A stretch of DNA of 64,000 nucleotides from Bacteroidales bacterium (GTDB taxonomy: Bacteria; Bacteroidota; Bacteroidia; Bacteroidales; P3). A program made the translations under genes and the position numbers. The notes beneath the pieces were generated by a model. It was not told where the DNA came from and made no database searches. It saw only the letters and a program-made list of their open reading frames with translations. The stretch spans positions 5,566-69,565 of the forward strand of contig JAUNHX010000005.1 of assembly GCA_030523765.1 (NCBI GenBank), in the 5' to 3' direction. Of this stretch, positions 5,251-54,173 are shown one piece after another. The stretch's first letter is position 1; every line of letters starts with the position of its first letter.

Positions 5251-5288
5251 ACTCTTGAATTAAAAGTATCGCATTCATAAATGCTGAT

Positions 5289-5322
5289 GGAGGACCCTTC
5301 TTGTAAGGGTCCTCCTTTTTTT
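5289..5322 (+). terminator. Rho-independent terminator after the cargo gene (copy 1)
   Basis: Perfect 11-bp stem ggaggaccctt/aagggtcctcc, 5-nt loop, then T7. It lies 39 nt after the stop codon. Confidence 0.85.
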
Positions 5323-5330
5323 GTATAAGG

Positions 5331-5427: not shown

Positions 5428-5517
5428 GTTTTTTTAACAGTGACTATGAAACTATTTGGGATTCTCAAACGTCTACATCGTCGAAATAATAAAGAAGTGT
5501 TGAACAATTAAAATTAG

Positions 5518-6015
5518 ATGACAATGAAAAGAACTGTTATTGTAATGATGATGATCTGCTTTGCAGGAATCGGCCTTCGGGTGCAAGCCCAGTCTACGGC
5601 TGTGGATTGCGATGCGCTCATCCTTCCTCGTTATAACAACGATTCGACGGTGCTAGAGATGTTGGTTCCAGAAAAGTACGAGTGGCTCTGTACCTATGCA
5701 CACAATGCGCTTTATCTGACCAATACGGCTCCTCGCGATGCTGCCGTACACAACATTAGTGAACTTCGTTGTTATGCTACCAACCAAAAGTTGCCCGACA
5801 ATTATGTTGTCGACCTCAACTCGTTTAGTGTCTATGCTTACAACTTCTCCGACTTCTTCTACCAACACAATGGCCGCGAGGTTTATTTCCGTGTGGGGAA
5901 CGAAGGCAACCAGTATCTTGTGGCTCGTGCTCCTAGCGAAGCGCTGAAGATGGCCGATGATGCTGTGGCTGCTGGTAACGGTATCGGAGGTGGCCACGCT
6001 ACGGAACAACGCTAG
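5518..6015 (+). CDS. Secreted hypothetical protein, 165 aa (copy 2)
   Basis: Protein identical to 1573-2070. Confidence 0.7.
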   Translation: MTMKRTVIVMMMICFAGIGLRVQAQSTAVDCDALILPRYNNDSTVLEMLVPEKYEWLCTYAHNALYLTNTAPRDAAVHNISELRCYATNQKLPDNYVVDLNSFSVYAYNFSDFFYQHNGREVYFRVGNEGNQYLVARAPSEALKMADDAVAAGNGIGGGHATEQR

Positions 6016-6087
6016 TGCAATCAATAATGGCTATCGCAAAGTTAAGAAAACATATATATGCATTTCACAATTATAAAGATTAAGGTC

Positions 6088-9000: not shown

Positions 9001-9195
9001 CCCAACAACAGTTTGGCTATCTACAACCGCTGGGGTAAGCGTGTATACTTCAAGGAGAATATCAGCAGCGATGACGATTGGTGGGATCCCGCTAAGGACA
9101 ATATCCCTGATGGTACCTATTTCTGGCGCTTCTCGGGTAAGGGTTACTTAGGCAATATCCAACGTACCGGTTCGGTCGAGGTACTCTCTAACTAG
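6088..9195 (+). CDS. Large secreted multidomain protein with T9SS type B C-terminal sorting domain (copy 2)
   Basis: Protein identical to 2143-5250. Confidence 0.85.
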   Translation: MKKILVMLALITVGFIGQVYAQGGITQVYLNATTNGTTYTVPDEGIYLNSDNGGVGGHYVAGTDYSITVEGTCTGLNHMALIFERFNIAPEDTLYIYDGPSTSSVLIMKSNNNYNPLASQTVYASSLNTSNQLTIRLKANSSNGTGFTCLVGCRFPCETVTPVIDSFYYKTINGQIVDTCYIRNFTTTEQVATAIDSTLTGYDTNGAPIYSYDTTWTNQDNYFRGVTLCVGEGVIFNGHGEYTQNYGAYTPSDMSSIFTWSLGNGEVVDEVGLRQVAAYYRDLDCYDVILSIEDERGCKSTLLETVRVRLAQNPIKTLFDLQTMCNTDSLLVNVGYEGENGTITLKKIEFEKTKTQVNNVRTFVPDGKCPPDNSDCFTAKVNFDDFPAGRAVTDKGDICSICVNAEHSFMGDCTYAIICPSGSKGYLKRKSQVEGEDPYTGGGSGKFLGIPYGGNNDGAWDNSSEKCDSLANMYGYGWNYCWTRNPEYSIVTYQGAQAGIAVPDHTVTTSHTFGVIPAPFYRAGETCGTVTSSNTQDSSDHDGKSGYYLPASDFNDLVGCPLNGEWGMEFCDTWGADNGWIFSFSLDICGISSGAGCEYQVGLDSLVWRPDSSYGDFLLGHYRGATVTRRDSVNAWIATPDTAGLFGIHVTLYDEFGCVWDTMTRITTVWAPMPELGDDTILCDFQTMMLDASDAHTAMTNQSFKWEPFGDSVAVIETRNNMGSDILYKVEVQNYQHDVTCITRDSIRVKVKPQPRPNFDPGVYPLEGCEPFIINITNNTPNADKHIWVWGDGDTSFTAEPTHAYAAGHYDFKYYAESDAGCKDSLVYTNLITVFSSPVAKFSWEPVNPTVMHPEVQFINKTEPQADTNKYYWEIQYDRDNHLSYHTMTDVNPVFQWQTDGEDISGTYIARLIAKTNNLGPSGNVVECRDTIENSILLVNDFLQFPTVVTPNGDGINDVFEIKNLVNGLGYPNNSLAIYNRWGKRVYFKENISSDDDWWDPAKDNIPDGTYFWRFSGKGYLGNIQRTGSVEVLSN

Positions 9196-9233
9196 ACTCT
9201 TGAATTAAAAGTATCACATTCATAAATGCTGAT

Positions 9234-9268
9234 GGAGGACCCTTCTTGTAAGGGCCCTCCTTTTTTTT
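9234..9268 (+). terminator. Rho-independent terminator (copy 2, one stem mismatch, T8)
   Basis: ggaggaccctt/aagggccctcc has an A.C mismatch at 9255, followed by eight T. Confidence 0.75.
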
Positions 9269-23932: not shown

Positions 23933-26053
23933 CTATTTTTCGCTCTCACCCTTAGGGTGCTCGTTGTTGGGGCTGTAGAAACGGCGGGCAGCCTCTTCTT
24001 GACGCGGTTCGGAGAAATTAGATACCCTTTTCAAGTAGCCTATAATACGTGTCATATAGTCTATATTGTGGCTATGACATACGGGGCATTCCTTTAGATA
24101 GCGCTTATCGATATGTCCACAATCGTTACAGATAGTGTTGGGGATATTGAAGGTGAAGTAGTTGCATCCCTCTTGTGCAGCCACCCGCATCAGGTGTTTG
24201 TATTGCTGTTTCGACAAGTGTTCCTCAAGATTGAGGTGGAGTGCCGATCCACCTGTAAGATGCTCAATATATTTGTGTCCGTGCAGTTTTATCTTCTCAA
24301 TGATATCAGTGTTGGGATCTTCTACTACGTAGAAATAACTATTGTAGCAGTCGCGTGGCACTTGATACCCATCTTCGCGATCCCACTTAGCATGTTTTAC
24401 ACCCACATTCTCTGCTGGGATCATCTCGCAGTTGAACATCAGTTCTTTGGAGTGGTATTTCTTATTATAGCGTTCAATCAGTCCTAACACATCTTGAACA
24501 AACGAGGCATAGGTGGGATTGTCGTTGATGGTGATGCCCAAAAATTCGGCTGCCTCTACTAATCCGTTGACTCCAATGGTGAGGTATTGTCGACTCATAT
24601 TGATAAACCCAGCATCGAAGAGGGGCAACATCCCTTTGCTTTGCAGTTGTTTTAGATTCTCGTTGTAGGCCATCTGTACTTTGTGGCAAAGATCAACAAT
24701 CTCCTCTAGAAACACTAGATAGTGCATATTGTTGCGGGCTGCATATTGTACACAGCGGTTGATATTGATGGTGAGTACGCTCTTGGATCCTGTCGAAACA
24801 CCACCAGCACCGAGGGTATAACTGAATCCGTTGTCTTGTATTTCATTACGCAGACGACAGCACGACGAGAGCGAATCGGCGTTGTCGCTGATGTAAGTGA
24901 AGAACGAGTGGCCTTCGGCATACATCTCGGCAGCATAATCGCCCCACTCTTTGTCTTTCATATCTCCATTTTCGGTTAGCAGCGCCATCGTCTCGACTGG
25001 GAAGGTAAGTACACAGCGCTTACGTTCGGCATTAAACCATTGCATGAACCGTTTTTGCAACCACGATAGCGAATCCCAGCAAGGTTTGCTTCCATCGGGG
25101 AAACGAAATTCGCCAAAGAGCGATTCGAAGTAGTAGCGGTCATAGTAGGAGATATTCCAAAAAACTGACTGGAAATTGCGGGCACCAGCAGGCTGGTTGA
25201 TCGAGTATACAATCTGCTCGAAACTATCGGTGATTACTTTATCAAGGGTACGTTGCTTTACGGAGAGGTCTACCACACGATCGGTGTGCATATAATAGTC
25301 TTCGCCATATTCTTTCCCAATAAAATAGTTCATATACATCAGAAACTCGGGTGTAGCACAGGCACCGCTTAGCATTGACGATACCATGAAGACCATATTT
25401 ACAAAGCCACCACAAAATGAGCGCAGGTTGGTAGGACAGGTGCTGTTTCCTCCGATGGGGATAGTGCCCTCGAGCAGCCAGGGATACATTGTTATCGAGG
25501 CGCAATAGTTGGCCATCGAGGTTTCATCGTTTTTATAGATAAAATGCTGGGTAAGATAGCGTATATATTGGTCGGCCAGTTCTTTGCCGAACATCTCTTT
25601 CACTCGGTCGGTAAGCAGTCGTCGGTTTAGGCGGATAAAACTCTGCTTAGGTAGTTCACCTATAAGGGTGGCAATGTTTTTTTTCTCTACATTGGCGTTG
25701 GCATCGTATTTCGATCCTGTAGTTGCGTTAGATGCATCGCAATAATTGGTTAGGAACGATAGTTTTTCTCGTATCTCTCGATCTTCCGTATGCTGTTGGC
25801 GATACAGTATATAGTTCTTAGCCACAGTGAAGTAACGCTCGGCCATGAGGGCTGTTTCCACTTGGTTCTGAATCTCCTCTACTGTCATGCCATCAGTAAC
25901 ACGCACGCGACTCAGTATGGCCGTTAAATCATCGTTGGTGGCATAAAAACCTGAGGCCAAGAAGGCTTTACTGATGGCAATCTTAATTTTCTCGACGGCA
26001 AATACCTCTTCTTTACCGTCACGCTTGGTGATAAACAGTCCGTTATCGCTCAT
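23933..26053 (-). CDS. nrdD: Anaerobic ribonucleoside-triphosphate reductase (class III)
   Basis: I chose the start at 26053 (MSDNGLFITKRDGKEE, ATP-cone). The ORF-track start 26101 adds 16 T-rich codons that overlap a leader hairpin and T-run. C-terminal zinc site CNDCGH..CPVCHS and glycyl-radical motif TRIIGYL. Confidence 0.9.
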   Translation of the reverse strand: MSDNGLFITKRDGKEEVFAVEKIKIAISKAFLASGFYATNDDLTAILSRVRVTDGMTVEEIQNQVETALMAERYFTVAKNYILYRQQHTEDREIREKLSFLTNYCDASNATTGSKYDANANVEKKNIATLIGELPKQSFIRLNRRLLTDRVKEMFGKELADQYIRYLTQHFIYKNDETSMANYCASITMYPWLLEGTIPIGGNSTCPTNLRSFCGGFVNMVFMVSSMLSGACATPEFLMYMNYFIGKEYGEDYYMHTDRVVDLSVKQRTLDKVITDSFEQIVYSINQPAGARNFQSVFWNISYYDRYYFESLFGEFRFPDGSKPCWDSLSWLQKRFMQWFNAERKRCVLTFPVETMALLTENGDMKDKEWGDYAAEMYAEGHSFFTYISDNADSLSSCCRLRNEIQDNGFSYTLGAGGVSTGSKSVLTININRCVQYAARNNMHYLVFLEEIVDLCHKVQMAYNENLKQLQSKGMLPLFDAGFINMSRQYLTIGVNGLVEAAEFLGITINDNPTYASFVQDVLGLIERYNKKYHSKELMFNCEMIPAENVGVKHAKWDREDGYQVPRDCYNSYFYVVEDPNTDIIEKIKLHGHKYIEHLTGGSALHLNLEEHLSKQQYKHLMRVAAQEGCNYFTFNIPNTICNDCGHIDKRYLKECPVCHSHNIDYMTRIIGYLKRVSNFSEPRQEEAARRFYSPNNEHPKGESEK

Positions 26054-26119
26054 AGTTCTTTCTCCTATTAATAATGTAAATAAAAAAATAAAGTCGGACA
26101 TGCCTCTTGTCCCCGAAAG

Positions 26120-26320
26120 ACGTTGTCCTCATATTTTGTTAAGGCAGGTCTTCTGACTTGTTCTGGGGCGGGCCGCCTTCCCAACCGAGGAGGGTTAGTG
26201 GCTGAGCGTTTAGTTTTTTTTCGGAGTATCGCCCACCCTTTGTTAAGAACTTACAGCTACGGGCATAGTCTATGATTCTCACATAGTTCCCTATTAATCG
26301 CGCGGACTAGTTTGCGAACC
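26120..26320 (-). promoter_or_regulatory. Cobalamin (B12) riboswitch in the nrdDG leader
   Basis: The minus-strand RNA contains AAUAGGGAAC, GUGAGAAUC, GCCCGUAGCUGUAAG, GCCACU...GGGAAGGC and the B12 box AGUCAGAAGACCUGCC (forward 26143-26158). These appear in the canonical order. A short hairpin plus U-run follows (about 26080-26112). Confidence 0.85.
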
Positions 26321-26330
26321 TTAACAGTTG

Positions 26331-26338
26331 CAAAGTTA
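26331..26338 (-). promoter_or_regulatory. -7 box TAACTTTG driving the riboswitch-nrdDG transcript
   Basis: The minus strand reads tgTAACTTTGcaactg, just upstream of the riboswitch. Confidence 0.6.
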
Positions 26339-44977: not shown

Positions 44978-45694
44978 ATGACGAATCAGCCGTTGAATAT
45001 TGTTGCCATTTTGGCAGGTGGTACGGGAAGCCGTATGGGTGCCGATAAGCCTAAGCAATTTTTACCGCTAGGCGAAATGATGGTGATAGAGCATACCATT
45101 GTTGCTTTTGAAAGGCATGAGGCTATCGATGCCATCATTATTGTGGTGCATAGCGATTGGCTTGATTTCTTAAATGAATTGGTGGCTAAGCATCACTGGC
45201 ACAAGGTTAGGGCAGTTGTAGTGGGAGGCAAGGAACGTTACCATTCAACGTTAGCTGCTATTGAGGCTGCGAGTTTGATTGATGCTGACTGCCGTTTATT
45301 AATACATGATGCAGCACGTCCCTTGGTGTCGCATCGTATTATTGGCGATGTGGTGATGGCATTGAATGACTATAGAGCTGTGGCGGTAGGTTTACCTTCA
45401 ACCGATACGATATGGAAGGTGTCACTTCACGAGGGATTGCTGCCTACGGTAGACCAGGTGCCAATGCGCAACTTGATGTATAGGGCTCAGACGCCACAGG
45501 CGTTCCACCTCTCGCTGTTAAGGGAAGCTTACCAGAGGGTCCTCAGTAGTGAGAACTATCAGCCTACCGATGATTGCGGGGTGCTCCGTAGGGCATTTCC
45601 CAACGAGCCAGTGGCAGTTGTGGTAGGGGAGGAGCGCAACTTGAAGATAACTACACCAGAAGATTTGAAATGGGCGAAGATGCTTCTTTTGTAA
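44978..45694 (+). CDS. ispD: 2-C-methyl-D-erythritol 4-phosphate cytidylyltransferase (IspD family)
   Basis: 238 aa with ILAGGTGSRMGADKPKQFL and LIHDAARP motifs. A TarI-like function cannot be excluded from sequence alone. Confidence 0.75.
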   Translation: MTNQPLNIVAILAGGTGSRMGADKPKQFLPLGEMMVIEHTIVAFERHEAIDAIIIVVHSDWLDFLNELVAKHHWHKVRAVVVGGKERYHSTLAAIEAASLIDADCRLLIHDAARPLVSHRIIGDVVMALNDYRAVAVGLPSTDTIWKVSLHEGLLPTVDQVPMRNLMYRAQTPQAFHLSLLREAYQRVLSSENYQPTDDCGVLRRAFPNEPVAVVVGEERNLKITTPEDLKWAKMLLL

Positions 45695-45779: not shown

Positions 45780-45787
45780 TATTTTTG
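45780..45787 (+). promoter_or_regulatory. -7 box TATTTTTG upstream of the phosphonate operon
   Basis: atgTATTTTTGcacaaaa. It leaves a leader of about 235 nt before ATG 46026. Confidence 0.5.
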
Positions 45788-46025
45788 CACAAAAATAATA
45801 GAGTGTTCTTTGTGTAGGCTAAGACTAGAACGATGATCCTCTTTCCCCATTTGGAGATATGTTATTTTGGATATGTGATTTTTTTTAGAGTAATAGTTGC
45901 AAGCGGGGAAACATCTGATTCATATAATGTGAGAAATTTTAAATATAAATAATACATATAATACTTAATAAACCATTCCTCCACCCACTTGATGGAGACT
46001 AAGATAAATCCTTAAACGAACAACC

Positions 46026-47333
46026 ATGGAAAAGAAAAAAGTATACGTAGGCATGAGTGCCGACATGATCCATCCAGGTCATCTCAATATCATCAATGAA
46101 GCTGCCAAACTTGGCGAGGTAACTGTTGGTGTACTCACCGATGAGGCTATTGCTAGCTACAAGCGTCTCCCTTACCTTACATACGACCAGCGAGCTCAGA
46201 TTGTCTCTTCTATCAAAGGGGTAGAGCATGTTATTCCCCAAACAACGCTCGACTATGTGCCTAACCTGGAGAAACTGCATCCCGATTTTGTGGTACATGG
46301 TGACGACTGGAAGGAGGGAGTGCAGAAGGAGACTCGTCAACGTATCATTGAATGTATGGCTAAATGGGGTGGCCGGGTGATTGATATTCCTTATACTAAG
46401 GGCATCTCGAGTACCGCTATGAATGAGCGTCTTAAAGAGATAGGCACTACGCCCGAGATCCGTCTCAAGAGACTTCGCCGTCTGATTGGTGCCAAGAAGA
46501 TTGTTCGCATCTTGGAGTCGCACAATGGCCTTACGGGTCTTATCATAGAGAATACTTCGGTTACCATTAATGGTATGAAACATGAGTTTGATGGTATGTG
46601 GTCCTCTTCTCTAACCGATTCAACGGTGAAAGGTAAGCCTGATATTGAGGCGGTTGACCTCACTACCCGTCTTCACGATTTGAACGATACACTTGAGGTG
46701 ACAACCAAGCCTATCATCTTTGATGGCGATACGGGCGGAAAGATCGAACATTTTGGTTTTACGGTACGTACATTGGAACGTCTCGGTGTGAGCGCTATCA
46801 TTATTGAGGACAAGACGGGTCTTAAGAAAAATTCGCTCTTTGGCACCGATGCTGTTCAGACCCAAGATAGCATTGAAAACTTCAGCAATAAGATTCGTGC
46901 AGGAAAATACGCACAGGTAACAGACGATTTTATGATCATTGCTCGTTGCGAGAGTCTTATTGCCGGACGCTCTGTTGACGATGCTCTTGAACGTTGTCAC
47001 GCTTATGTGGAGGCAGGGGCCGATGGTATTATGATACATAGTAAAAATAAGGATGGCAACGATATTAAGGAGTTCTGTCTCCGTTTCCGTGAAACCAATC
47101 CTACCACTCCTATCATTGCAGTACCTACTACTTATAACCAAATTAGCGAAGATGAGCTTTCGTCATGGGGTGTTAATGTAGTCATCTATGCTAATCATAT
47201 GCTCCGTGCAGCTTATCCCGCTATGGTCAACTGTGCTAAATCGATCCTCTCGCATGGCCGTTCTTATGAGGCTTCCAATGAATACTGCATGTCGATTAAA
47301 GAAATCCTTGAACTAATACCTGGTACCAAATAA
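46026..47333 (+). CDS. pepM: Cytidylyltransferase-domain / phosphoenolpyruvate mutase fusion protein
   Basis: The N-terminal ~130 aa carry HxGH (MIHPGHLNI) and YTKGISST motifs, as in the TagD/CCT cytidylyltransferase family. The C-terminal ICL/PEP-mutase fold carries the PepM-diagnostic EDKxxxxxNS motif ([15 protein letters not shown]). Confidence 0.85.
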
Positions 47334-47365
47334 GAAACCGCTAACCTTTTTTCCTTCCGCTTATT

Positions 47366-48496
47366 ATGCTCAGTCCTAAAACGTTCATTGATTATCTTCA
47401 GGCGCACAACCTTGATTTCTATACGGGTGTGCCCGATTCACTCCTCAAGAATCTCTGCGCCTATATCACCGATACGCTACCTCATCATCGTCATATCATC
47501 GCTGCCAATGAGGGTGCTGCTGTTGGTCTTGCTGCTGGTCATTATATCGCTACGCGCCATATCCCTACCGTTTATATGCAAAACTCAGGTATAGGTAATG
47601 CAGTGAATCCGTTGATGTCGCTTACCGACGAAGATGTTTACAATATTCCAGTGCTTCTACTCATAGGATGGCGTGGTGAACCTGGGGTTCACGATGAGCC
47701 CCAGCATAAAAAACAGGGTAAGGTGACTATCCCGTTGCTGGATGCTATGCAGATACGCAATGCTATACTCAGCACCGATGAGGCAGAAGCATTGAAGCAG
47801 GTAGAGGAGGCTATAGCTTATATGAAAGAAACACAACGAGCCTTCGCTTTCGTTGTTCACAAGGGCACTTTTGATGATTATAAACTGCAAAATGTGATTA
47901 TTCGTTCAGAATTGCATTTACAGCGCGAAGAGGCTATACGTCATATAGTAGAACATATTGAGCCGCAAGCTGCTATCGTCTCCACAACAGGTATGATTAG
48001 TCGCGAATTGTTCGAAATTCGTGAGGCTCGCCACGAACAACACCAACGTGATTTCCTTACCGTAGGTTCTATGGGTCATGCTTCACAGATTGCTTTAGGC
48101 ATTGCCCTCGAGCAACCTCAACGTCCTATCTACTGTCTAGATGGCGATGGTGCTACTATCATGCATATGGGTAGTCTCTCGATTGTAGGACAGATGCAGC
48201 CTGCCAACTATACCCATATTGTATTGAACAATGGTGCTCATGATTCTGTGGGTGGTCAGCCTACGATGGGTTTGGATATTGATCTTCCTGCCATTGCTAC
48301 TGCAGCCAACTACAAGAGCACATTCACAGCATCATCAGTCGAGGAACTGGATGCTATCCTTCAGTCGGTGGTCAATGCACCTAAGCCAGCCCTTATCGAA
48401 GTGAAGGTTAAGAAGGGTGCCCGAAAAGATTTGGGCCGTCCCACCACTACTCCTATTCAGAACAAAGAGGCATTGATGACCTTCCTTAACCAATAA
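47366..48496 (+). CDS. ppd: Phosphonopyruvate decarboxylase (ThDP-dependent)
   Basis: 376 aa with the ThDP motif GDGATIMHMGSL...NNGAHDSVGGQ. It lies directly after pepM, as in known phosphonate loci. Confidence 0.8.
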   Translation: MLSPKTFIDYLQAHNLDFYTGVPDSLLKNLCAYITDTLPHHRHIIAANEGAAVGLAAGHYIATRHIPTVYMQNSGIGNAVNPLMSLTDEDVYNIPVLLLIGWRGEPGVHDEPQHKKQGKVTIPLLDAMQIRNAILSTDEAEALKQVEEAIAYMKETQRAFAFVVHKGTFDDYKLQNVIIRSELHLQREEAIRHIVEHIEPQAAIVSTTGMISRELFEIREARHEQHQRDFLTVGSMGHASQIALGIALEQPQRPIYCLDGDGATIMHMGSLSIVGQMQPANYTHIVLNNGAHDSVGGQPTMGLDIDLPAIATAANYKSTFTASSVEELDAILQSVVNAPKPALIEVKVKKGARKDLGRPTTTPIQNKEALMTFLNQ

Positions 48497-48505
48497 AACC
48501 TCCTT

Positions 48506-49603
48506 ATGCAGTATTACTCCATTGGCGACCAAGCTATTGATCAACTGAAACAACAACTGATTGATGTTCAGGTTAAGGCACTCTTCCTTGTTTGTGGAAG
48601 CCATAGTTATTCATCTTCGGGGGCTCAAGCGCTCCTCGATCCTTTCTTTGAAGAACGACATATCCATGTTGATATGTATATAGCGCACGGACCTAATCCC
48701 AAAGAGGAGGATGCCCATAAGGGTGCACTCCTTTTCAACCAGTCAGTCGCCAAGACCATATTGGCTGTAGGGGGTGGTTCGTGTATCGATACTGCCAAAC
48801 TGATAAAGCATTTCTCCAATAAGCCTGAGGCTATACTGATTGCTATCCCTACTACTGCAGGTACTGGATCAGAGGCTACTCCCTTTGCAGTGATGTATGT
48901 TGATGGAGTGAAGAAATCGGTCGATAGTAGTGCTCTCCTTCCGAACAGCGCCTACATCTATCCTCCTTTCACCTATGGCAATAGTCCCTATCTAACCGCT
49001 TGTACGGGATTCGATGCGTTGGCGCAAGCCATAGAGGCATATTGGAATATTCACTCAACTCCAGAATCAGACGAGTATGCACTCAAAGCGATGGGTCTGC
49101 TTCGCGAAACCCTTCCTCTCCTCCTTCAAAACCCATCAGAGTCACGCCCCGATACTCCGTTGCTGAGATCCCGTCTTGCTGATGGAGCCTATTGGGCAGG
49201 TCGTGCTATTGCTATTAGCCGCACCACAGCACCACATGCTTTCTCCTATTATCTCACCTCTCGTCATGGCTATCCTCACGGCCATGCTGTGGCCGCCACT
49301 TTCCCCTTCTTTTATGAGTTCAATACACAGTGTCCTGCCGAAGATTACCTGGGTGACGATTTTGAATTGTATCAAGATAAGATGGAGATGATGAAATTGA
49401 TTTTGGCTCTACCCAATGCAGCCGCCTTCGATTTCTTCCTCAACCTTATTGGACTTACCCCATTTGATACTTCTACTATCGATTGGGCCGACTACTTTTC
49501 ACATATCAATATGCAGCGACTCCAAAACAACCCTCGGAGACTGAACGATGGCACAACCGAGCAGTTACAACGATACCTTGATCTCCGATTTAAACTACAA
49601 TAG
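48506..49603 (+). CDS. Iron-containing (group III) alcohol dehydrogenase, probable phosphonoacetaldehyde reductase
   Basis: 365 aa with GGGSCIDTAKL (GGGSxxDxAK) and a His-rich metal site (HAFSY..HGHAVA). It sits right after ppd. The function is inferred from context. Confidence 0.6.
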   Translation: MQYYSIGDQAIDQLKQQLIDVQVKALFLVCGSHSYSSSGAQALLDPFFEERHIHVDMYIAHGPNPKEEDAHKGALLFNQSVAKTILAVGGGSCIDTAKLIKHFSNKPEAILIAIPTTAGTGSEATPFAVMYVDGVKKSVDSSALLPNSAYIYPPFTYGNSPYLTACTGFDALAQAIEAYWNIHSTPESDEYALKAMGLLRETLPLLLQNPSESRPDTPLLRSRLADGAYWAGRAIAISRTTAPHAFSYYLTSRHGYPHGHAVAATFPFFYEFNTQCPAEDYLGDDFELYQDKMEMMKLILALPNAAAFDFFLNLIGLTPFDTSTIDWADYFSHINMQRLQNNPRRLNDGTTEQLQRYLDLRFKLQ

Positions 49604-49631
49604 ATAACACTCCGTTAAAACACCTTGTTAT

Positions 49632-50327
49632 ATGAACAAAGACTTCCTTGCTAAAATAGCTATCCGCTTAGGCGTATACGAACCTTTGATGAAACTGGAT
49701 ACCAAACTGATTAATAAACGTCAGAATAAAGCGTTTATTCGATATGGCCTCGATGCATTGGTAACTGCCGATAAGGTGGCTACCGATTGTGGGGCTCAAC
49801 TGTTTCTCTGTTTCGGTTCTCTGCTAGGTGCCTATCGTGAGAAGGGTTGGATCCCCTTCGATTACGATCTTGATACGGGAATGATGTACGAACAGCGCCC
49901 CGCTAATTTCCCTCAAATGATGGAGGCTGCAGGTTTTACTTTGCTACGCAGTTACTATATTGGCACAAGCAAGCGGATTACGGAAGATAAGTTCGATTAT
50001 AAGGGAGTGCATATCGATGTGCACTATTATTATAACGATGATAAGGAGCACACTTGTTGCTGTGAGCTGACCATACCTCACGAAAGCAAAGATTGGCGTA
50101 CGGCTAATGCTACTGATGGATTCCCCTCGATTATCAGATCTTGTCCTCAAACAGAATTTGAGCGAGGCAACTTCTTAGGACATCAGATCTATATGCCTGT
50201 CAAGACGAAAGAATGGCTGGAAACGCTGTATGGAGAATCATTCATGACACCCGACCCTAAATGGACGATGAACAACCATAAGAAATTGTCTACCACTTAT
50301 GGTGAGCGGGTATATCGTACTTCATAA
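49632..50327 (+). CDS. licD: LicD-family phosphotransferase
   Basis: 231 aa. LCFGSLLGAYREKGWIPFDYDLDTGM matches the LicD nucleotidyltransferase-fold motif with DxD. Confidence 0.7.
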   Translation: MNKDFLAKIAIRLGVYEPLMKLDTKLINKRQNKAFIRYGLDALVTADKVATDCGAQLFLCFGSLLGAYREKGWIPFDYDLDTGMMYEQRPANFPQMMEAAGFTLLRSYYIGTSKRITEDKFDYKGVHIDVHYYYNDDKEHTCCCELTIPHESKDWRTANATDGFPSIIRSCPQTEFERGNFLGHQIYMPVKTKEWLETLYGESFMTPDPKWTMNNHKKLSTTYGERVYRTS

Positions 50328-50370: not shown

Positions 50371-50399
50371 AAAGGAGCTAAGCAGCTCCTTTCTTTTTT
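50371..50399. terminator. Bidirectional rho-independent terminator after licD
   Basis: aaaggagct-aagc-agctccttt, flanked by an A-run on the left and cttttttt on the right. Confidence 0.8.
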
Positions 50400-50535: not shown

Positions 50536-51663
50536 CTAATCTTCCAAAACCGACTTGAACTTGTCGTACATACGATCAGCTGAGTACTGTTCAAGGAAGA
50601 TGGTTCTAGCGTATTCGTTGAAACGGGGACGAGGATGCTGACAGAAGTCGTTGATGGTTTCAATAAACTCGTTGGCAGTGAGGCAACAAGCTCCGGCTTT
50701 CGAATAGTCGAGATCGTAGCCACTCCAAGCTTCGGGGGTACCGATAATATTTTTTCCATACATGAGACTCTCGCAAGTTTTTACCTTCATTCCGCTTCCC
50801 TTGAAGATGGGTAATACCATAATATCGGCTGCTTCGAAGAGAGGTCTTAGATCGGGGACGTTGCTTAGAATGTCGATTTCGGGACGAATCCAATCAGCCT
50901 CTTTCAGTTTGTCCATTCCTTTACCCACCACTTGCATGCGGATAGAAACGTGAGGTAGCACCTGCTTCACGAACCATTCGATGCCCTCTACGTTGGCAGG
51001 GAAATAGGCACCGAGGAACATACATAGCGGGGGAGTAGAGGTGGTGTCGGATTGAGGAGAAGTAGGGGATTGATAACGATCCACAAAAGCGATGGGAATC
51101 AACTGGTTCGCACGTCGTCCGTAGCGACGGAAAAGCTCATCATCATCGCGACGACTGAGGGCGATCGTACGATCGGCATATCGGCAACTCCATCGATCGT
51201 TGCGATTGGCACATGAAACGACAAGCCATCGCATAGGGTTGAGGGAGAGCTGCTTCGAGAAGAGCGAGAACGAGAGCTGCGAGTATTTGGCTGAGAAATA
51301 GACAGCCTCCACATTATGGAAGAAACAGATAACCCGTCCTTTATAGTTGGTTTTCTTTAGCCGTTTTGCAATGATGCCGAAAACGGAGCGATCAACAAAC
51401 ACCACATCGTATGACTGTGCTTTGTTTACTATTTCGCGAACCCTTTTGGGTGTAAGTCCGAAATAGTAACCCAAAGGCATATAGATCACACCTTGCAAAT
51501 ATTCCCACATACTGCGCTTGTGAGCTTCATCGTGGATGAAGTAAGTGTCTACCTTTTCGATACCAGCAATCTGACTCAACACAGTGTGGTTCAATTCACT
51601 CGCTTTCTCGCCCCCTTCGGGAACGCCGCGTGTCTTCTTATATCGGATGATCAGTATTTTCAT
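50536..51663 (-). CDS. Glycosyltransferase, GT4-like (GT-B fold)
   Basis: 375 aa with the C-terminal motif LPIFKGSGMKVKTCESLMYGKNIIGTPEA, typical of GT1/GT4 enzymes. Its start overlaps the upstream yfhO-like stop by 4 nt. Confidence 0.7.
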   Translation of the reverse strand: MKILIIRYKKTRGVPEGGEKASELNHTVLSQIAGIEKVDTYFIHDEAHKRSMWEYLQGVIYMPLGYYFGLTPKRVREIVNKAQSYDVVFVDRSVFGIIAKRLKKTNYKGRVICFFHNVEAVYFSAKYSQLSFSLFSKQLSLNPMRWLVVSCANRNDRWSCRYADRTIALSRRDDDELFRRYGRRANQLIPIAFVDRYQSPTSPQSDTTSTPPLCMFLGAYFPANVEGIEWFVKQVLPHVSIRMQVVGKGMDKLKEADWIRPEIDILSNVPDLRPLFEAADIMVLPIFKGSGMKVKTCESLMYGKNIIGTPEAWSGYDLDYSKAGACCLTANEFIETINDFCQHPRPRFNEYARTIFLEQYSADRMYDKFKSVLED

Positions 51664-54173
51664 TGTTTCTTCTTTCGATAAACGAGGAATATGGCACCAC
51701 CAGCCAATAGGATGAGCAAGATAGAACTTGCGATAGTGACAGTATTCATCTTATGGAAGAGCGGAGCCTCATTCTTGAATTCAATCACGTGGTCTCCTGC
51801 AGGAATCACCATAGCACGGAGGATATAGTTGGCGCGGATATAATCGGCCGGTTTGCCATCAATATAGGCACGCCAATCGGGCTCGTAGTAGATCTCACTG
51901 AATACCGCAATTTGGTCGCTGCTAGTATGTGTAGTATACTTAAGGTAATCAGGATTGTAAGGAGTTTGGTGCTCCATTACGATAGTGTTGTTGCTATCGG
52001 TGCTGATGGCGTTGTTTGACAACGAGAACTCAGAGGTATTGATAATAGCGGTAGTGGCGGGATTGAAACCGTTAATGGCTAAAATCTCTTCGTCGGCATT
52101 CGAAACAGCCTTCACATTGCTCACGAACCACGCGTTGCCCAATGCTTCAGGATTGCGTTGAACCTGTCCGCCTTGCACTACAATATATTTAGCGTTGAGC
52201 ATATTGAGGACAGGCATACTGATACGACTCGAAAGGTAGAAATCAATGATGTCTTGATAGCGACGCATCTTAACAGCGCTATATCCACCCACTTGGCGAT
52301 GGAAAGCGGCAGGTTTGCTGTCGTTGAAGGTGTTGGTAGCGAGGTTCAGCACACGATAGTTTTCATCGCCAAACTGAGCAGCCATCTTGTCAATCTCATA
52401 ATCCCATGAATCGGGTTTCAGTTTGAGTTGCTGTTCACTCACATAGTTCTTATCATTGACATAGCGACGATCAACACCCCAAAGATCAATAACCACCAAC
52501 AGCATCAAAGCAATAGTAAGATAGGTGGCTAAATTGGAAGAGCCAGTAGCGTTCTTTTTGGTATTAGCACCTACTTTTCGTAGATAGAACCAAAGAAGAG
52601 CGAAGGCCAAGACTACAAAGAGCAGCGAACGCCAAGTATCGCTAACGAACAGTGCTTTACGATCTTGGATAAAGATATCCTGGATTTGTTGCCACTGATT
52701 GCCGTACTGTGGAGCCATCTGATCATCGGCAGCACCAGTAAAGGAGAGAGAGCCACTAACGAGAAGTCCAATGAGGAGCATAGCAGCAGTAACTCCACCG
52801 CCAATATATAAAGCGAGACGTTTGCGCTTGATGTCCACCTGATCAGAAAACATCTGTTTGAGACCCAAGATAGCCATCAAAACCATACATACGTTGGCTA
52901 GCACAAGACTCATGCTAGGGGTACGGAATTTATTATAGAAAGGTAAGTGGTTGAATATCCATTCATTGAAAGGCATTAGATTACGTCCCCACGACATGAG
53001 AATAGCCAGAAGGGTAGCAGCCAGCAACCACCAACGCTCAGGCCCAGGTACCAAGATGAGACCTATCATAAATAGGAAAATGATGATAGCACCAAAATAA
53101 ACAGGTCCGCTAGTAAACGGCTGATCGCCCCAATAGAGAGGCATATTTTCCTGATGGAAAGCTTTATAGGAGGCACTCTCTGTACTTACTGGCTCACCGC
53201 TACCACCACCCATAGCACCAGGCACGAGGAGGGTATAGGTTTCACCAACGCCATAACTCCACGAGAAAGCGTAGTCGATTTCCAAACCATTCTTCTCTTT
53301 CTTATCGCTCTTAGTTGCAGCATTCGCGTTGCCCTCTAAAGCATCGGGAGTAACGGTGATAGCGTTACCACCACGCATCGTATAGTCGGTATACTGTTTG
53401 CTTACCATCAGCGCACGAGCGTTACATCCAAAAGCGAGGACACAACCCAACAGAAGCACACCCACACCAATCATCATCTTGGGGAAATACTTATCCTTGA
53501 TGGCATAAACCAAATGAGCTATGCCCAGCAACACAGCACCAATAAGCGTATAGTAGGTAATCTGAATATGGTTGAAGTTGAGTTGCAAACCCAAAGCCAA
53601 CGTGAAGAGGAGTCCTCCCCAAAGCCAGTCTTTCCGTTTGTCGCGTCCCTCTTGGGGTTTGCGCATACAGAGCGCCATACCTGCCAAGATAGGAGCCATC
53701 ATTGCCATAGCCCAAGCCTTCGATATATGTCCTGCTTCAACAATAATGATATTATAGCTACCCAATCCGAAGGCCAAAGCACCGAGGGCAGAGAGTAGGG
53801 GAGAGCACCCCAGTAGTATCAAAGCCAAATAGAAGCCTACCAAATAGAGAAAGAGCACACCGATAGTGCGTCCCCATCCAAACATTTCTAGGTTGGCAGC
53901 CTTACGCAGAGGCGACATGATGCTTTGCATAGGAGGATTACCGCCCACCTGATAGATAGGCATACCACCAAACATAGCGCTGTTCCAAAGCGCATATTCG
54001 CCCGTTTGAGCATGATAGTCTTTGGTCTCCTTAACCATTGCTTCAAATTTCTGGGTATCGCCCTGATACATTTCTTCACCACTCAAGATGGGAGAGAAGT
54101 AGATGCAAGCTATGGCGAAGAAGCCGAGGATGATGCCTGCATGAAGGAGAATTTTCTTTGTCTTGGGATTCAT
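51660..54173 (-). CDS. YfhO-family polytopic membrane protein (putative glycan/lipid-linked sugar transferase)
   Basis: 837 aa with about 13 TM segments in the N-terminal 560 aa, a large extracytoplasmic C-terminal domain, and a final TM. The N-terminus (FSPILSGEEMYQGDTQKF...WNSAMFGGMP) is typical of Bacteroidota YfhO-like proteins. Confidence 0.65.
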   Translation of the reverse strand: MNPKTKKILLHAGIILGFFAIACIYFSPILSGEEMYQGDTQKFEAMVKETKDYHAQTGEYALWNSAMFGGMPIYQVGGNPPMQSIMSPLRKAANLEMFGWGRTIGVLFLYLVGFYLALILLGCSPLLSALGALAFGLGSYNIIIVEAGHISKAWAMAMMAPILAGMALCMRKPQEGRDKRKDWLWGGLLFTLALGLQLNFNHIQITYYTLIGAVLLGIAHLVYAIKDKYFPKMMIGVGVLLLGCVLAFGCNARALMVSKQYTDYTMRGGNAITVTPDALEGNANAATKSDKKEKNGLEIDYAFSWSYGVGETYTLLVPGAMGGGSGEPVSTESASYKAFHQENMPLYWGDQPFTSGPVYFGAIIIFLFMIGLILVPGPERWWLLAATLLAILMSWGRNLMPFNEWIFNHLPFYNKFRTPSMSLVLANVCMVLMAILGLKQMFSDQVDIKRKRLALYIGGGVTAAMLLIGLLVSGSLSFTGAADDQMAPQYGNQWQQIQDIFIQDRKALFVSDTWRSLLFVVLAFALLWFYLRKVGANTKKNATGSSNLATYLTIALMLLVVIDLWGVDRRYVNDKNYVSEQQLKLKPDSWDYEIDKMAAQFGDENYRVLNLATNTFNDSKPAAFHRQVGGYSAVKMRRYQDIIDFYLSSRISMPVLNMLNAKYIVVQGGQVQRNPEALGNAWFVSNVKAVSNADEEILAINGFNPATTAIINTSEFSLSNNAISTDSNNTIVMEHQTPYNPDYLKYTTHTSSDQIAVFSEIYYEPDWRAYIDGKPADYIRANYILRAMVIPAGDHVIEFKNEAPLFHKMNTVTIASSILLILLAGGAIFLVYRKKKQ

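What the first reader, a model, noticed from the sequence alone, without database searches (positions are those of the whole stretch)
45780..50327. Phosphonate tailoring operon of the hydroxyethylphosphonate type: CT-PepM, Ppd, Fe-ADH, LicD, no aminotransferase
PepM ([10 protein letters not shown] motif) and the ThDP-dependent Ppd give phosphonoacetaldehyde. The well-known Bacteroides route continues with an AEP transaminase (AepZ/PhnW-type). Here the next gene is instead a group III iron alcohol dehydrogenase. That matches the role of phosphonoacetaldehyde reductases that make 2-hydroxyethylphosphonate. A cytidylyltransferase domain (fused to PepM) and a LicD-family transferase would then activate the phosphonate and attach it to a glycan or lipid. 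To my knowledge, HEP-decorated glycans have been characterised mainly outside Bacteroidota. The acceptor and structure here are unknown.
Basis: partly seen in the sequence, partly recalled or inferred. Interest (0 to 1): 0.68.

Follow-up and report, generated by a model that had tools for sequence, protein, structure and literature searches.

The report
Hydroxyethylphosphonate surface-decoration operon in a Bacteroidales bacterium
This is a real four-gene operon that most likely makes CMP-activated 2-hydroxyethylphosphonate and hangs it on a cell-envelope sugar or glycolipid, but the same cassette is common and already annotated in many Bacteroidota genomes, so it is an ordinary new member of a known kind.

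Summary
Window 46026-50327 (+) holds four tightly spaced genes. They are a cytidylyltransferase-PEP mutase fusion, a phosphonopyruvate decarboxylase, a group III Fe-ADH and a LicD-family transferase. A terminator follows, and no aminotransferase lies anywhere in the 64 kb.

- The ADH belongs to a large clade that lies next to pepM/ppd in 65 of 80 genome loci. NCBI names members of this clade "phosphonoacetaldehyde reductase".
- The ADH carries the Tyr reported as strictly conserved in PhpC-type reductases.
- The fused cytidylyltransferase domain is 60% identical to the Fom1 domain that makes CMP-HEP. It differs systematically from the same domain in aminotransferase (AEP)-type operons.
- The LicD model matches FKRP, a CDP-donor phosphotransferase.

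The novelty is low. The order CT-PepM, Ppd, ADH, LicD recurs in many Bacteroidales, including Porphyromonas macacae DSM 20710. RefSeq annotates the cassette in Segatella copri DSM 18205 and in Fulvitalea axinellae.

Still unknown are the acceptor and the actual chemistry. I found no paper describing HEP glycoconjugates from Bacteroidota. I could not compare the ADH directly with PhpC/FomC sequences, and I could not search the rest of the genome.

The parts
45780..45787 (+). TATTTTTG box (Bacteroidetes-type -7 element TAnnTTTG), a candidate promoter of the operon.
   Evidence: Read directly from the sequence. The assignment as a promoter is inference from general knowledge of Bacteroidetes promoters and was not tested. 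The sigma-70-type scan found nothing above background.
46026..46442 (+). N-terminal cytidylyltransferase domain of the fusion protein (aa 1-139). It has HPGH at aa 16-19 and TKGISST at aa 124-130. It is predicted to make CMP-2-hydroxyethylphosphonate from HEP and CTP.
   Evidence: PF01467. It is 83/139 identical to the Fom1 CyTase domain, PDB 5X3D, E 1.5e-57. It carries the ADH-type residue at 10/10 positions that separate ADH-linked from aminotransferase-linked domains. The Fom1 alignment starts at M1, which supports the 46026 start over the 426-aa gene call seen.
46473..47333 (+). PEP phosphomutase domain (aa 150-435) with the catalytic motif [10 protein letters not shown] (nt 46806-46835). 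It converts PEP to phosphonopyruvate.
   Evidence: TIGR02320 equivalog, 409.7 bits against 319.6; PF13714. PDB PEP mutases 5UNC and 1M1B, E about 1e-41.
47366..48496 (+). Phosphonopyruvate decarboxylase (ThDP-dependent). It converts phosphonopyruvate to phosphonoacetaldehyde.
   Evidence: TIGR03297 equivalog, 528.8 bits against 312.5; TPP_enzyme_N and TPP_enzyme_C.
48506..49603 (+). Group III (Fe-ADH fold) dehydrogenase, predicted phosphonoacetaldehyde reductase making 2-HEP. Metal site is D170/Q174/H244/H258. Predicted phosphonate-binding residues are K136, T240, Y248 and R338.
   Evidence: PF00465, PF25137 and PF13685. Homologues are named phosphonoacetaldehyde reductase. It lies next to CT-PepM/Ppd in 65/80 genome loci. 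K136, T240 and Y248 are invariant in all 110 PepM-linked homologues, and R338 in 109 of them. Q174 aligns with Gln and Y248 with Phe of sulfoacetaldehyde reductase 6JKO. The residue roles are taken from PMC13576164.
49632..50327 (+). LicD-family phosphotransferase (DYDLD at aa 77-81). It is predicted to transfer the HEP-phosphonyl group from CMP-HEP to a hydroxyl of a glycan or glycolipid.
   Evidence: PF04991, 29.4 bits against 22.6. An identical protein is named LicD family protein by NCBI. The AF2 model has pLDDT 91.7. The best PDB fold match is FKRP, E 1.9e-6, TMq about 0.5. The FKRP sequence match covers the DxD region.
50371..50392 (.). Hairpin followed by a T-run on both strands, between the convergent LicD and GT4 genes. 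It is the likely bidirectional terminator that ends the operon.
   Evidence: Terminator scan.
44978..45694 (+). IspD-family cytidylyltransferase, 331 nt upstream and in the same orientation. It may be associated with the operon, or it may simply be the housekeeping IspD.
   Evidence: It passes both TIGR00453 (184.6 against 181.3) and NF001183, ribitol-5-P cytidylyltransferase (172.6 against 166). A homologue lies 23-45 nt upstream of CT-PepM in 8 related loci. In 7 others it lies about 2.4-2.5 kb upstream, and in one 1.7 kb upstream; in the one 2.4-kb locus examined (L104) an unrelated T9SS cargo gene lies between. It is absent from other loci that carry the cassette, such as L031 and L173.
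50536..54173 (-). GT4 glycosyltransferase (50536-51663) and an 837-aa YfhO-like polytopic membrane protein (51660-54173), convergent with the operon. They are candidate builders of the acceptor glycoconjugate.
   Evidence: Pfam. YfhO-like homologues lie within the fetched locus in 11/80 genome loci and 11/38 of the closest metagenome loci, in varying order and orientation, and in 0/21 aminotransferase-type loci. The functional link is inference only.

Best explanation
The region is a four-gene operon for decorating the cell envelope with 2-hydroxyethylphosphonate (HEP). The proposed steps are:
1. The PEP mutase domain converts PEP to phosphonopyruvate.
2. Ppd pulls this unfavourable step forward by decarboxylating phosphonopyruvate to phosphonoacetaldehyde.
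3. The Fe-ADH-fold enzyme reduces the aldehyde with NAD(P)H to HEP.
4. The N-terminal cytidylyltransferase domain of the PepM fusion condenses HEP with CTP to give CMP-HEP, as Fom1 does in fosfomycin biosynthesis.
5. The LicD-family enzyme transfers the phosphonyl group to a hydroxyl of a glycan or glycolipid and releases CMP.

Shown here are the gene identities, the operon structure, the conserved linkage and the residue signatures. Inferred are every catalytic step, the donor of LicD, and the acceptor. The acceptor may be a glycoconjugate built by the neighbouring GT4 and YfhO-like proteins.
For: - The PepM and Ppd matches are at equivalog level.
- The ADH is in the operon, 9 nt after ppd.
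- Its 120 best homologues all share D/Q/H/H. Of 80 genome loci found with the ADH profile, 65 have CT-PepM and/or Ppd adjacent.
- NCBI/RefSeq name members of the family phosphonoacetaldehyde reductase in several phyla.
- Y248, K136 and T240 are invariant in all 110 PepM-linked homologues, and R338 in 109 of them. Their spacing matches Tyr264, Lys157, Thr256 and Arg349, the residues predicted to bind HEP in P. fungorum PhpC (PMC13576164). The Tyr is Phe in sulfoacetaldehyde reductase.
- The CT domain is 60% identical to the Fom1 CyTase domain, which makes CMP-HEP (Cho 2017, as cited in PMC6697681).
- CT domains of ADH-linked fusions (n=107) average 61% identity to Fom1. Aminotransferase-linked ones (n=21) average 50%, although their PepM domains are equally similar to the window's. 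Fom1 and the window carry the ADH-type residue at 10/10 discriminating positions.
- LicD has a confident model with an FKRP-like fold and the DxD motif.
- An ADH-LicD fusion protein exists in a related operon.
- LicD or TagF-like transferases and polysaccharide genes are the recurrent neighbours.
- The window has no aminotransferase, and ADH-type loci have none apart from one weak case.
Against: - No biochemical or chemical data exist for this organism or, as far as my searches went, for any Bacteroidota HEP glycoconjugate.
- I could not align the ADH with PhpC, FomC or DhpG themselves.
- The best NCBIfam hit, TIGR03405, is far below its cut-off (128 against 424 bits).
- The second metal ligand is Gln, not the His of the characterised P. 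fungorum PhpC.
- Some clade members lack pepM nearby, for example L004, where the ADH follows an IspD-like gene. The family may therefore not be strictly specific for phosphonoacetaldehyde.
- The discriminating CT positions rest on only 11 distinct aminotransferase-linked sequences from a few related lineages, so shared ancestry may contribute.
- An aepZ-type gene elsewhere in the genome cannot be excluded.
Confidence: 0.78

Rival explanations
1. The product is a phosphonolipid or glycolipid head group rather than a polysaccharide decoration. In this reading LicD acts like Mycoplasma fermentans Mf1, which puts phosphocholine on a glycolipid.
For: The only NCBIfam hit of the LicD protein is NF045866, the phosphocholine transferase Mf1 (E 3.1e-8, short stretch). 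No flippase or polymerase gene lies in the window operon itself.
Against: In related loci the cassette sits among flippases, Wzy-like polymerases, GT2/GT4 enzymes and sugar epimerases. The neighbours here are a GT4 and a YfhO-like GT-C-type membrane protein. This is a variant of the main explanation (same chemistry, different acceptor), not a contradiction of it.
Confidence: 0.2
2. The end product is 2-aminoethylphosphonate after all. A transaminase encoded elsewhere converts phosphonoacetaldehyde, and the ADH only buffers or detoxifies the aldehyde.
For: AEP is the predicted intermediate in 56% of ppm neighbourhoods (PMC8942020). Only 64 kb of the genome could be inspected.
Against: - The ADH is conserved inside the operon across phyla.
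- Operons with Aminotran_5 have no ADH, and ADH operons have no Aminotran_5. The one exception is a 30%-identity hit on the short contig L085.
- The fused CT domain is of the Fom1/ADH-linked type at 10/10 discriminating positions and differs from the aminotransferase-linked type.
Confidence: 0.05
3. The IspD-like gene and LicD form a CDP-ribitol / ribitol-phosphate transfer pair, as ISPD and FKRP do. HEP would then be handled by some other, unidentified transferase or released.
For: The IspD-like protein passes the ribitol-5-P cytidylyltransferase subfamily model. It is tightly linked upstream in 8 related loci. FKRP, the best structural match of LicD, uses CDP-ribitol. L004 shows LicD together with IspD and a TarJ-like Zn-ADH.
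Against: - The window has no ribulose-5-P reductase (TarJ-type) gene.
- The minimal modules in Fulvitalea (aepX, aepY, reductase, LicD) and P. macacae lack IspD.
- An ADH-LicD fusion ties LicD to the phosphonate branch.
- In L104 an unrelated T9SS gene lies between IspD and the cassette, and six further loci have the same 2.4-2.5 kb gap, as expected for a mere syntenic neighbour.
Confidence: 0.06
4. The cluster makes a free small-molecule phosphonate (fosfomycin-like or methylphosphonate-like), or it is catabolic, with the ADH acting as an HEP dehydrogenase.
For: Fom1, Fom2 and FomC have the same first three activities (PMC6697681). PhpC-type enzymes also act in catabolism (PMC13576164).
Against: - No radical-SAM methyltransferase, epoxidase, MpnS/HEPD-type dioxygenase, PhnX, PhnA/PhnY or C-P lyase gene was seen in the window by Pfam.
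- The organism looks anaerobic, with NrdD and Rnf genes.
- The operon ends with a LicD transferase and a terminator.
- The presence of pepM and ppd marks biosynthesis.
Confidence: 0.03

Closest known systems
Fom1-Fom2-FomC, the early steps of fosfomycin biosynthesis in Streptomyces wedmorensis / S. fradiae
   Same: The first three proteins and the predicted chemistry are the same: a PF01467 cytidylyltransferase fused to PEP mutase, Ppd and an Fe-ADH-fold reductase, giving CMP-HEP. The window's CT domain is 60% identical to the solved Fom1 CyTase domain 5X3D (PMC6697681).
   Different: No Fom3, Fom4 or FomD equivalents are present. Here the CMP-HEP is predicted to be consumed by a LicD transferase for envelope decoration, not methylated and epoxidised to an antibiotic. 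Direct similarity of the ADH to FomC was not measured.
AepX-AepY-AepZ (AEP) operons of Bacteroides fragilis and relatives, and the PntC nucleotidyl-activation scheme (Rice et al. 2019, PMC6697681)
   Same: They have the same CT-PepM fusion architecture and Ppd, about 80% identity in the PepM domain, cytidylyl activation followed by LicD-like or glycosyl transfer, and a cell-surface destination.
   Different: A class V aminotransferase replaces the ADH. The fused CT domain is only 50-55% identical to the window's and reads HPGL instead of HxGH in all 21 loci examined. At least one such locus has a separate PF12804 nucleotidyltransferase.
RefSeq-annotated HEP-type cassettes in cultured Bacteroidota: Segatella copri DSM 18205, Fulvitalea axinellae DSM 100852 and Porphyromonas macacae DSM 20710
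   Same: The module is aepX (CT-PepM), aepY and phosphonoacetaldehyde reductase, followed by LicD (Fulvitalea, P. macacae) or a CDP-glycerol glycerophosphotransferase-family protein (S. copri), all within polysaccharide loci.
   Different: The ADH is 34-40% identical to the window's. The S. copri aepX is a longer, 669-aa fusion. The flanking glycan genes differ. None of these products has been chemically characterised, to my knowledge.
PhpC-type phosphonoacetaldehyde reductases / HEP dehydrogenases (EC 1.1.1.309) and sulfoacetaldehyde reductase (PDB 6JKO/6JKP)
   Same: They share the PF00465 fold, the conserved Tyr four residues after the third metal ligand, and Lys, Thr and Arg at the spacing of the predicted HEP clamp (PMC13576164). 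The Asp/Gln/His/His metal site is identical to that of sulfoacetaldehyde reductase, which reduces the sulfonate analogue of the same aldehyde.
   Different: The second ligand is Gln rather than the His of P. fungorum PhpC. The score against TIGR03405 (PsrA / degradative PhpC type) is well below its cut-off. The window enzyme has Tyr where sulfoacetaldehyde reductase has Phe.
HEP-bearing exopolysaccharides of Stackebrandtia nassauensis and the PepM-Ppd-Pdh clusters of marine Prochlorococcus/SAR11
   Same: They have the same predicted intermediate (2-HEP) and a cell-surface glycoconjugate destination (PMC8942020, PMC8931226). A Prochlorococcus locus (L053) with CT-PepM, Ppd and ADH was recovered with the ADH profile.
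   Different: They come from different phyla and habitats. Marine clusters often continue to methylphosphonate via the O2-dependent MpnS, which is absent here.

Membership tests
PEP phosphomutase (PepM/AepX, TIGR02320) | The equivalog HMM score is above the curated cut-off | tested here: met
   409.7 bits against 319.55, residues 150-434.
PEP phosphomutase (PepM/AepX, TIGR02320) | The catalytic motif EDKxxxxxNS, which separates true PepM from other isocitrate-lyase superfamily members | tested here: met
   [10 protein letters not shown] at aa 261-270. The criterion is as used in PMC8931226.
Phosphonopyruvate decarboxylase (Ppd/AepY, TIGR03297) | The equivalog HMM score is above the cut-off, and both ThDP-binding domains are present | tested here: met
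   528.8 bits against 312.5, full-length match 16-374; PF02776 and PF02775.
PhpC-type phosphonoacetaldehyde reductase (EC 1.1.1.309) | Group III ADH fold (PF00465) with a GGGS nucleotide-binding motif | tested here: met
   PF00465, PF25137 and PF13685. GGGS at aa 89-92 is invariant in homologues.
PhpC-type phosphonoacetaldehyde reductase (EC 1.1.1.309) | The gene is clustered with pepM and ppd (biosynthetic context) | tested here: met
   It lies 9 nt downstream of ppd in the window. 65/80 genome loci of the clade have CT-PepM and/or Ppd adjacent.
PhpC-type phosphonoacetaldehyde reductase (EC 1.1.1.309) | The Tyr equivalent to Tyr264 of P. fungorum PhpC, reported strictly conserved in PhpC enzymes and replaced by Phe in sulfoacetaldehyde reductases (PMC13576164) | tested here: met
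   Y248 lies four residues after H244 and is present in 110/110 PepM-linked homologues. It aligns with Phe of 6JKO.
PhpC-type phosphonoacetaldehyde reductase (EC 1.1.1.309) | The Lys/Arg clamp and Thr that bind the phosphonate (Lys157, Arg349 and Thr256 in the P. fungorum model) | tested here: inconclusive
   K136, T240 and R338 are (nearly) invariant and have matching spacing to the metal ligands.
PhpC-type phosphonoacetaldehyde reductase (EC 1.1.1.309) | Four metal ligands Asp/His/His/His | tested here: inconclusive
   The site is D170/Q174/H244/H258. The second ligand is Gln in 107/110 PepM-linked homologues. The same Asp/Gln/His/His set binds Zn2+ in sulfoacetaldehyde reductase (PMC13576164), so the site is probably functional but not canonical.
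PhpC-type phosphonoacetaldehyde reductase (EC 1.1.1.309) | Clusters phylogenetically with the characterised enzymes PhpC, FomC, DhpG and AglG/AlpJ | not tested
   None of these sequences could be obtained with the tools; two protein searches returned none of them by name. Indirect support: 47%-identical homologues carry NCBI's name phosphonoacetaldehyde reductase. All PepM-linked ADHs separate from 1O2D and 6JKO in an NJ tree.
PhpC-type phosphonoacetaldehyde reductase (EC 1.1.1.309) | NAD(P)H-dependent reduction of phosphonoacetaldehyde to HEP | not testable with these tools
   This needs an enzyme assay.
TIGR03405 (Phn_Fe-ADH / PsrA, degradative PhpC type) | The equivalog HMM score is above the cut-off | tested here: not met
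   128.4 bits against 423.7, matching residues 104-274 only. The ADH is not a member of this subfamily.
Fom1-type HEP cytidylyltransferase domain (PF01467 fused to PepM) | PF01467 domain N-terminal to PepM, with HxGH and RTxGISTT-like motifs | tested here: met
   PF01467 on residues 11-133. HPGH at aa 16-19 and TKGISST at aa 124-130. HxGH is present in 107/107 ADH-linked domains.
Fom1-type HEP cytidylyltransferase domain (PF01467 fused to PepM) | Close similarity to the characterised Fom1 domain, as opposed to the aminotransferase-linked variant | tested here: met
   83/139 identical to 5X3D, E 1.5e-57. The ADH-type residue is present at 10/10 discriminating positions, as in Fom1.
Fom1-type HEP cytidylyltransferase domain (PF01467 fused to PepM) | Formation of CMP-HEP from CTP and HEP | not testable with these tools
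   This needs an enzyme assay.
LicD family (PF04991; LicD/FKTN/FKRP phosphotransferases) | Pfam score above the gathering threshold, and the DxD metal-binding motif | tested here: met
   29.4 bits against 22.6, but only residues 57-87 align. DYDLD is at aa 77-81, with D77, D79 and D81 invariant in 36 homologues. Homologues carry precomputed PF04991 and NCBI's name LicD family protein.
LicD family (PF04991; LicD/FKTN/FKRP phosphotransferases) | Nucleotidyltransferase-like catalytic fold, as in FKRP | tested here: met
   AF2 model with pLDDT 91.7 and pTM 0.87. The top 13 PDB matches are all FKRP, E 1.9e-6 to 1.6e-5, TMq 0.42-0.52.
AEP biosynthesis operon (AepX-AepY-AepZ) | An AEP transaminase (class V aminotransferase, PF00266) is encoded with pepM and ppd | tested here: not met
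   No PF00266 or any other aminotransferase domain was found in the window. tblastn with three AepZ-type proteins gave no hit in the window.
Fosfomycin-type small-molecule cluster | Downstream tailoring genes (Fom3 radical-SAM methyltransferase, FomD, Fom4/HppE) | tested here: not met
   No such domains were found among the window ORFs scanned with Pfam. The operon ends at a terminator after LicD.

The most novel reading that the evidence does not exclude
Many gut and rumen Bacteroidales, including this one and possibly Segatella copri, display a so far undescribed envelope glycoconjugate carrying 2-hydroxyethylphosphonate esters. LicD or TagF-like transferases would install it from CMP-HEP. 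In this lineage the acceptor would be built with the linked GT4 and YfhO-like GT-C proteins near the Kdo genes. A second part of this reading concerns the fused cytidylyltransferase. It would be an active HEP-specific enzyme only in ADH-type operons. In AEP-type operons it reads HPGL instead of HxGH, so it may be a degenerate domain, with a separate PntC doing the activation.
Probability: 0.35. Interest if true: 0.5.

Novelty: new member of a known kind. Interest (0 to 1): 0.3.

Why it matters
If the prediction holds, HEP would join AEP as a phosphonate surface decoration of host-associated Bacteroidales. Such groups resist phosphatases. They can also change charge, phage or antibody recognition and phosphorus budgets.

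The practical value of this work is that it names cultured strains carrying the same cassette, so the chemistry can be tested directly: P. macacae DSM 20710, S. copri DSM 18205, C. cynodegmi DSM 19736 and F. axinellae DSM 100852. It also gives sequence signatures that separate HEP-type from AEP-type CT-PepM fusions. The operon itself is not surprising to a phosphonate specialist.

Tried and rejected
1. Direct placement against PhpC, FomC and DhpG. Two large protein searches, one with the window ADH and one with an actinobacterial clade member, returned no sequence carrying those names. The sequences are not in the papers held, and PMC13576164 has no supplement held as text. I used literature-defined residues instead.
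2. Finding the window's own genome. The GTDB species-representative scan found no close relative (best 47% identity), so a genome-wide search for aepZ was impossible. Exact-protein look-ups found only contigs of the same locus.
3. TIGR03405 as a membership model. The score was far below the cut-off, so I rejected it.
4. A riboswitch or leader in the 331-nt region upstream of the operon. Rfam found nothing there at gathering scores. The sigma-70 promoter scan was at or below background.
5. IspD as a required part of the cassette. I rejected it as obligatory because minimal cassettes lack it and an unrelated gene can sit between them. Its role stays open.
6. Literature searches for HEP together with Bacteroidetes or Prevotella found no description of such a glycan.

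Full report
**What is there**

On the + strand the window carries four ORFs with gaps of 32, 9 and 28 nt: 46026-47333 (435 aa), 47366-48496 (376 aa), 48506-49603 (365 aa) and 49632-50327 (231 aa).
- The first is a fusion of a PF01467 cytidylyltransferase-like domain (residues 11-133) and a PEP mutase (TIGR02320, 409.7 bits against a cut-off of 319.6). It contains the motif [10 protein letters not shown].
- The second is phosphonopyruvate decarboxylase (TIGR03297, 528.8 bits against 312.5).
- The third is a group III ADH (PF00465, PF25137, PF13685).
- The fourth passes the LicD model on a short stretch (29.4 bits against 22.6).

A hairpin with T-runs on both strands at 50371-50392 separates the LicD gene from a convergent GT4 gene. 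Its reading as a Bacteroidetes-type promoter element is inference only.

**Surroundings**

The operon lies among envelope and housekeeping genes.
- Upstream are lpxA, lpxC, der, guaA, bamD-like, coaBC, an SLT transglycosylase, a DUF748 protein and an IspD-family gene (44978-45694).
- Downstream, on the opposite strand, are a GT4 glycosyltransferase, an 837-aa YfhO-like membrane protein and a 7TM-HD protein. After these come kdsA, kdsD and kdsB.

No aminotransferase domain was found in any sizeable ORF of the 64 kb. A tblastn with three AepZ-type transaminases from related operons found nothing in the window. The organism is an uncultured Bacteroidales bacterium. A protein identical to the LicD is named by NCBI as coming from a Bacteroidales MAG and occurs on many contigs. 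No close relative is among the GTDB species representatives.

**The alcohol dehydrogenase**

Apart from a 99% match from the same species, its relatives are at most 50% identical. They form a very large family: 5807 clusters below E 1e-5 among the 8000 candidates scored. NCBI names members "phosphonoacetaldehyde reductase" in Bacteroidales, Actinomycetota and other phyla.

With a profile of the family I fetched 80 genome loci out of 298 matching species genomes. CT-PepM and/or Ppd lie next to the ADH in 65 of them. Six of the 15 exceptions are contigs of about 3-4 kb (2,999-3,936 bases). The exact order CT-PepM, Ppd, ADH, LicD recurs in many Bacteroidales, including Porphyromonas macacae DSM 20710 and an Odoribacter MAG. 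Capnocytophaga cynodegmi DSM 19736 has a flippase gene between the ADH and LicD. RefSeq annotates aepX, aepY and phosphonoacetaldehyde reductase in Segatella copri DSM 18205, followed by a CDP-glycerol glycerophosphotransferase-family gene and O-antigen-type genes. It does the same in Fulvitalea axinellae, where LicD follows.

The metal site reads D170/Q174/H244/H258. The Gln is invariant in the 120 best homologues and present in 107 of 110 PepM-linked ones. A 2026 study of PhpC-type enzymes (PMC13576164) reports three relevant points. Sulfoacetaldehyde reductase binds Zn2+ with exactly Asp/Gln/His/His. P. fungorum PhpC is predicted to hold HEP with Lys157, Arg349, Thr256 and Tyr264. [quoted passage not shown]

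In the window enzyme, K136, T240, Y248 and R338 have the matching spacing to the metal ligands. K136, T240 and Y248 are invariant in all 110 PepM-linked homologues, and R338 in 109 of them. In the alignment with 6JKO, Q174 pairs with Gln and Y248 with Phe. In a neighbour-joining tree all PepM-linked ADHs separate from the two nearest solved structures. I could not obtain the PhpC, FomC or DhpG sequences themselves, so direct clustering remains untested. The enzyme is not a member of TIGR03405 (128 against 424 bits).

**The cytidylyltransferase domain**

Residues 1-139 match the solved N-terminal domain of Fom1 (5X3D) with E 1.5e-57 and 83/139 identities. That domain converts HEP and CTP to CMP-HEP (Cho et al. 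2017, as cited in PMC6697681).

As a control I fetched 80 metagenome loci with the whole fusion protein. Fifty-three have an Fe-ADH after or next to Ppd. Twenty-one have no ADH. Of those 21, 19 show an AepZ-type aminotransferase by tblastn directly after Ppd; three of these were confirmed as Aminotran_5 by Pfam. Six loci are cut short.

The PepM domains of the two kinds are equally similar to the window's (about 80%). The CT domains are not: 75-86% identity in the metagenome loci with an ADH, against 50-55% in aminotransferase loci. Across all fetched loci, identity to Fom1 averages 61% for ADH-linked domains (n=107) and 50% for aminotransferase-linked ones (n=21). Ten alignment positions separate the two classes, and both Fom1 and the window carry the ADH-type residue at all ten.

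One of those positions is the second His of HxGH. All 107 ADH-linked domains keep HxGH, while all 21 aminotransferase-linked ones read HPGL. The aminotransferase set has only 11 distinct sequences from a few lineages, so shared ancestry may inflate this contrast.

**LicD**

The Pfam match is short. Several other lines support the assignment:
- The protein has the DYDLD motif, with the three Asp invariant in 36 homologues.
- It matches the DxD region of FKRP by sequence.
- Its AlphaFold model is confident (pLDDT 91.7).
- The 13 best PDB fold matches are all FKRP, the CDP-ribitol-dependent ribitol-phosphate transferase (E 1.9e-6 to 1.6e-5, TMq 0.42-0.52).
- In one related operon the ADH and LicD are fused into one 619-aa protein.

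Among the 80 genome loci, 35 have a LicD gene and 43 have LicD or a TagF-like transferase. The other recurrent neighbours are GT2/GT4 enzymes, sugar epimerases, flippases and Wzy-like proteins.

**Most likely mechanism**

The proposed route runs from PEP to phosphonopyruvate (PepM domain), then to phosphonoacetaldehyde (Ppd) and to 2-HEP (ADH, NAD(P)H). The CT domain then makes CMP-HEP with CTP, and LicD forms a phosphonate ester on a glycan or glycolipid hydroxyl, releasing CMP.

Gene identities, operon structure, linkage and residue patterns are shown. All catalytic steps and the acceptor are inferred. The acceptor may be made with the neighbouring GT4 and YfhO-like proteins. YfhO-like homologues lie in 11/80 genome loci and 11/38 of the closest metagenome loci, in varying arrangement, and in none of the 21 aminotransferase loci. 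Lineage effects cannot be separated from function here.

**Rivals**

- A glycolipid acceptor is a variant of the main model, not a contradiction. The only NCBIfam hit of LicD is Mf1.
- AEP made through a distant transaminase is made unlikely by the mutual exclusion of ADH and aminotransferase operons and by the CT-domain type.
- An IspD/LicD ribitol-phosphate pair is made unlikely by the missing TarJ-type reductase. Cassettes without IspD and an unrelated gene inserted between IspD and the cassette in relatives also argue against it.
- A free natural product or a catabolic role lacks the necessary genes.

**Comparison and novelty**

The early steps equal Fom1, Fom2 and FomC. The logic equals the nucleotidyl-activation scheme for phosphonate tailoring (PMC6697681). 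HEP-type neighbourhoods were already counted as 8.5% of ppm neighbourhoods (PMC8942020). PepM-Ppd-Pdh clusters are known from marine bacteria (PMC8931226). The cassette is widespread and annotated in Bacteroidota.

I found no paper describing HEP-bearing glycoconjugates from Bacteroidota, so the product remains a prediction. This is a new member of a known kind. Its interest is modest and lies mainly in testability in cultured carriers and in the CT-domain signatures.

Noticed in passing
Related loci L145-L165 (aminotransferase-type CT-PepM operons) compared with 107 ADH-type loci: In all 21 aminotransferase-linked fusions (11 distinct sequences) the cytidylyltransferase signature HxGH reads HPGL. 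All 107 ADH-linked domains keep HxGH. The fused domain may be inactive or altered in AEP operons. L163 has a separate PF12804 nucleotidyltransferase after the transaminase.
   Followed up: partly
Related loci L086-L123, compared with window 48506-49603: These loci match the window best in LicD (52-60%), GT4 (73-76%) and YfhO (55-71%). Yet in the same slot they carry an ADH of a sister clade that is only 32-40% identical to the window's (motif CTMLDALCQGIESLWS against CTGFDALAQAIEAYWN). Both clades keep the D/Q/H/H site and the Tyr. This suggests exchange of the ADH gene within an otherwise conserved cassette.
   Followed up: partly
Related loci L022, L024 and L025 (Bacteroidales MAGs): These ADH homologues sit after rmlC, rmlD, kdsA and kdsD, in the position where relatives have the cassette, but have no pepM or ppd within 10 kb. 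They have His at the Gln position and Lys at the Arg338 position. This may be a remnant or a change of function.
   Followed up: partly
Related locus L004 (JGI metagenome contig, 80 kb): The closest non-self homologue of the window ADH (43% identity) has no pepM or ppd within 8 kb. It directly follows an IspD-like gene in a locus with LicD, a second IspD-like gene, a TarJ-like Zn-ADH and ribulose-phosphate epimerase. The family may include enzymes for another CDP-activated alcohol phosphate.
   Followed up: no
Window 1501-5323 and 5446-9268 (approximate ends): A 100% identical direct repeat of about 3.8 kb, with copies 3945 nt apart. Each copy carries a 165-aa ORF and a 1045-aa PKD/CHU_C (type IX secretion) protein. 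It is either a very recent tandem duplication or an assembly artefact.
   Followed up: partly
Window 26126-26338 (-): A cobalamin riboswitch (RF00174, 88.4 bits) lies immediately upstream of the anaerobic ribonucleotide reductase gene nrdD (23933-26101, -).
   Followed up: no
Window 46026-46052; same gene in L001 and L166-L171: Public gene calls for the fusion protein give 426 aa, starting at Met10. The alignment with Fom1 begins at Met1 and covers the conserved VYVGMSAD strand, so the 435-aa start at 46026 is better supported.
   Followed up: yes
Window 44978-45694 (+) and related loci L089, L094, L096, L101, L103, L109-L111: An IspD-family gene passes both the IspD model and the ribitol-5-phosphate cytidylyltransferase model. 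A homologue lies only 23-45 nt upstream of CT-PepM in eight related loci. Whether it is the housekeeping IspD or part of the envelope pathway is unresolved.
   Followed up: partly
Related loci L048, L055, L067, L071 and L079; Firmicutes loci L058-L084; S. copri L172: There are variants of the cassette. Some have an extra PF12804 nucleotidyltransferase, next to Ppd in every case (between Ppd and the ADH in L048, L067 and L079; between Ppd and CT-PepM in L055 and L071). Others have about 669-aa CT-PepM fusions carrying an additional N-terminal part that was not analysed.
   Followed up: no
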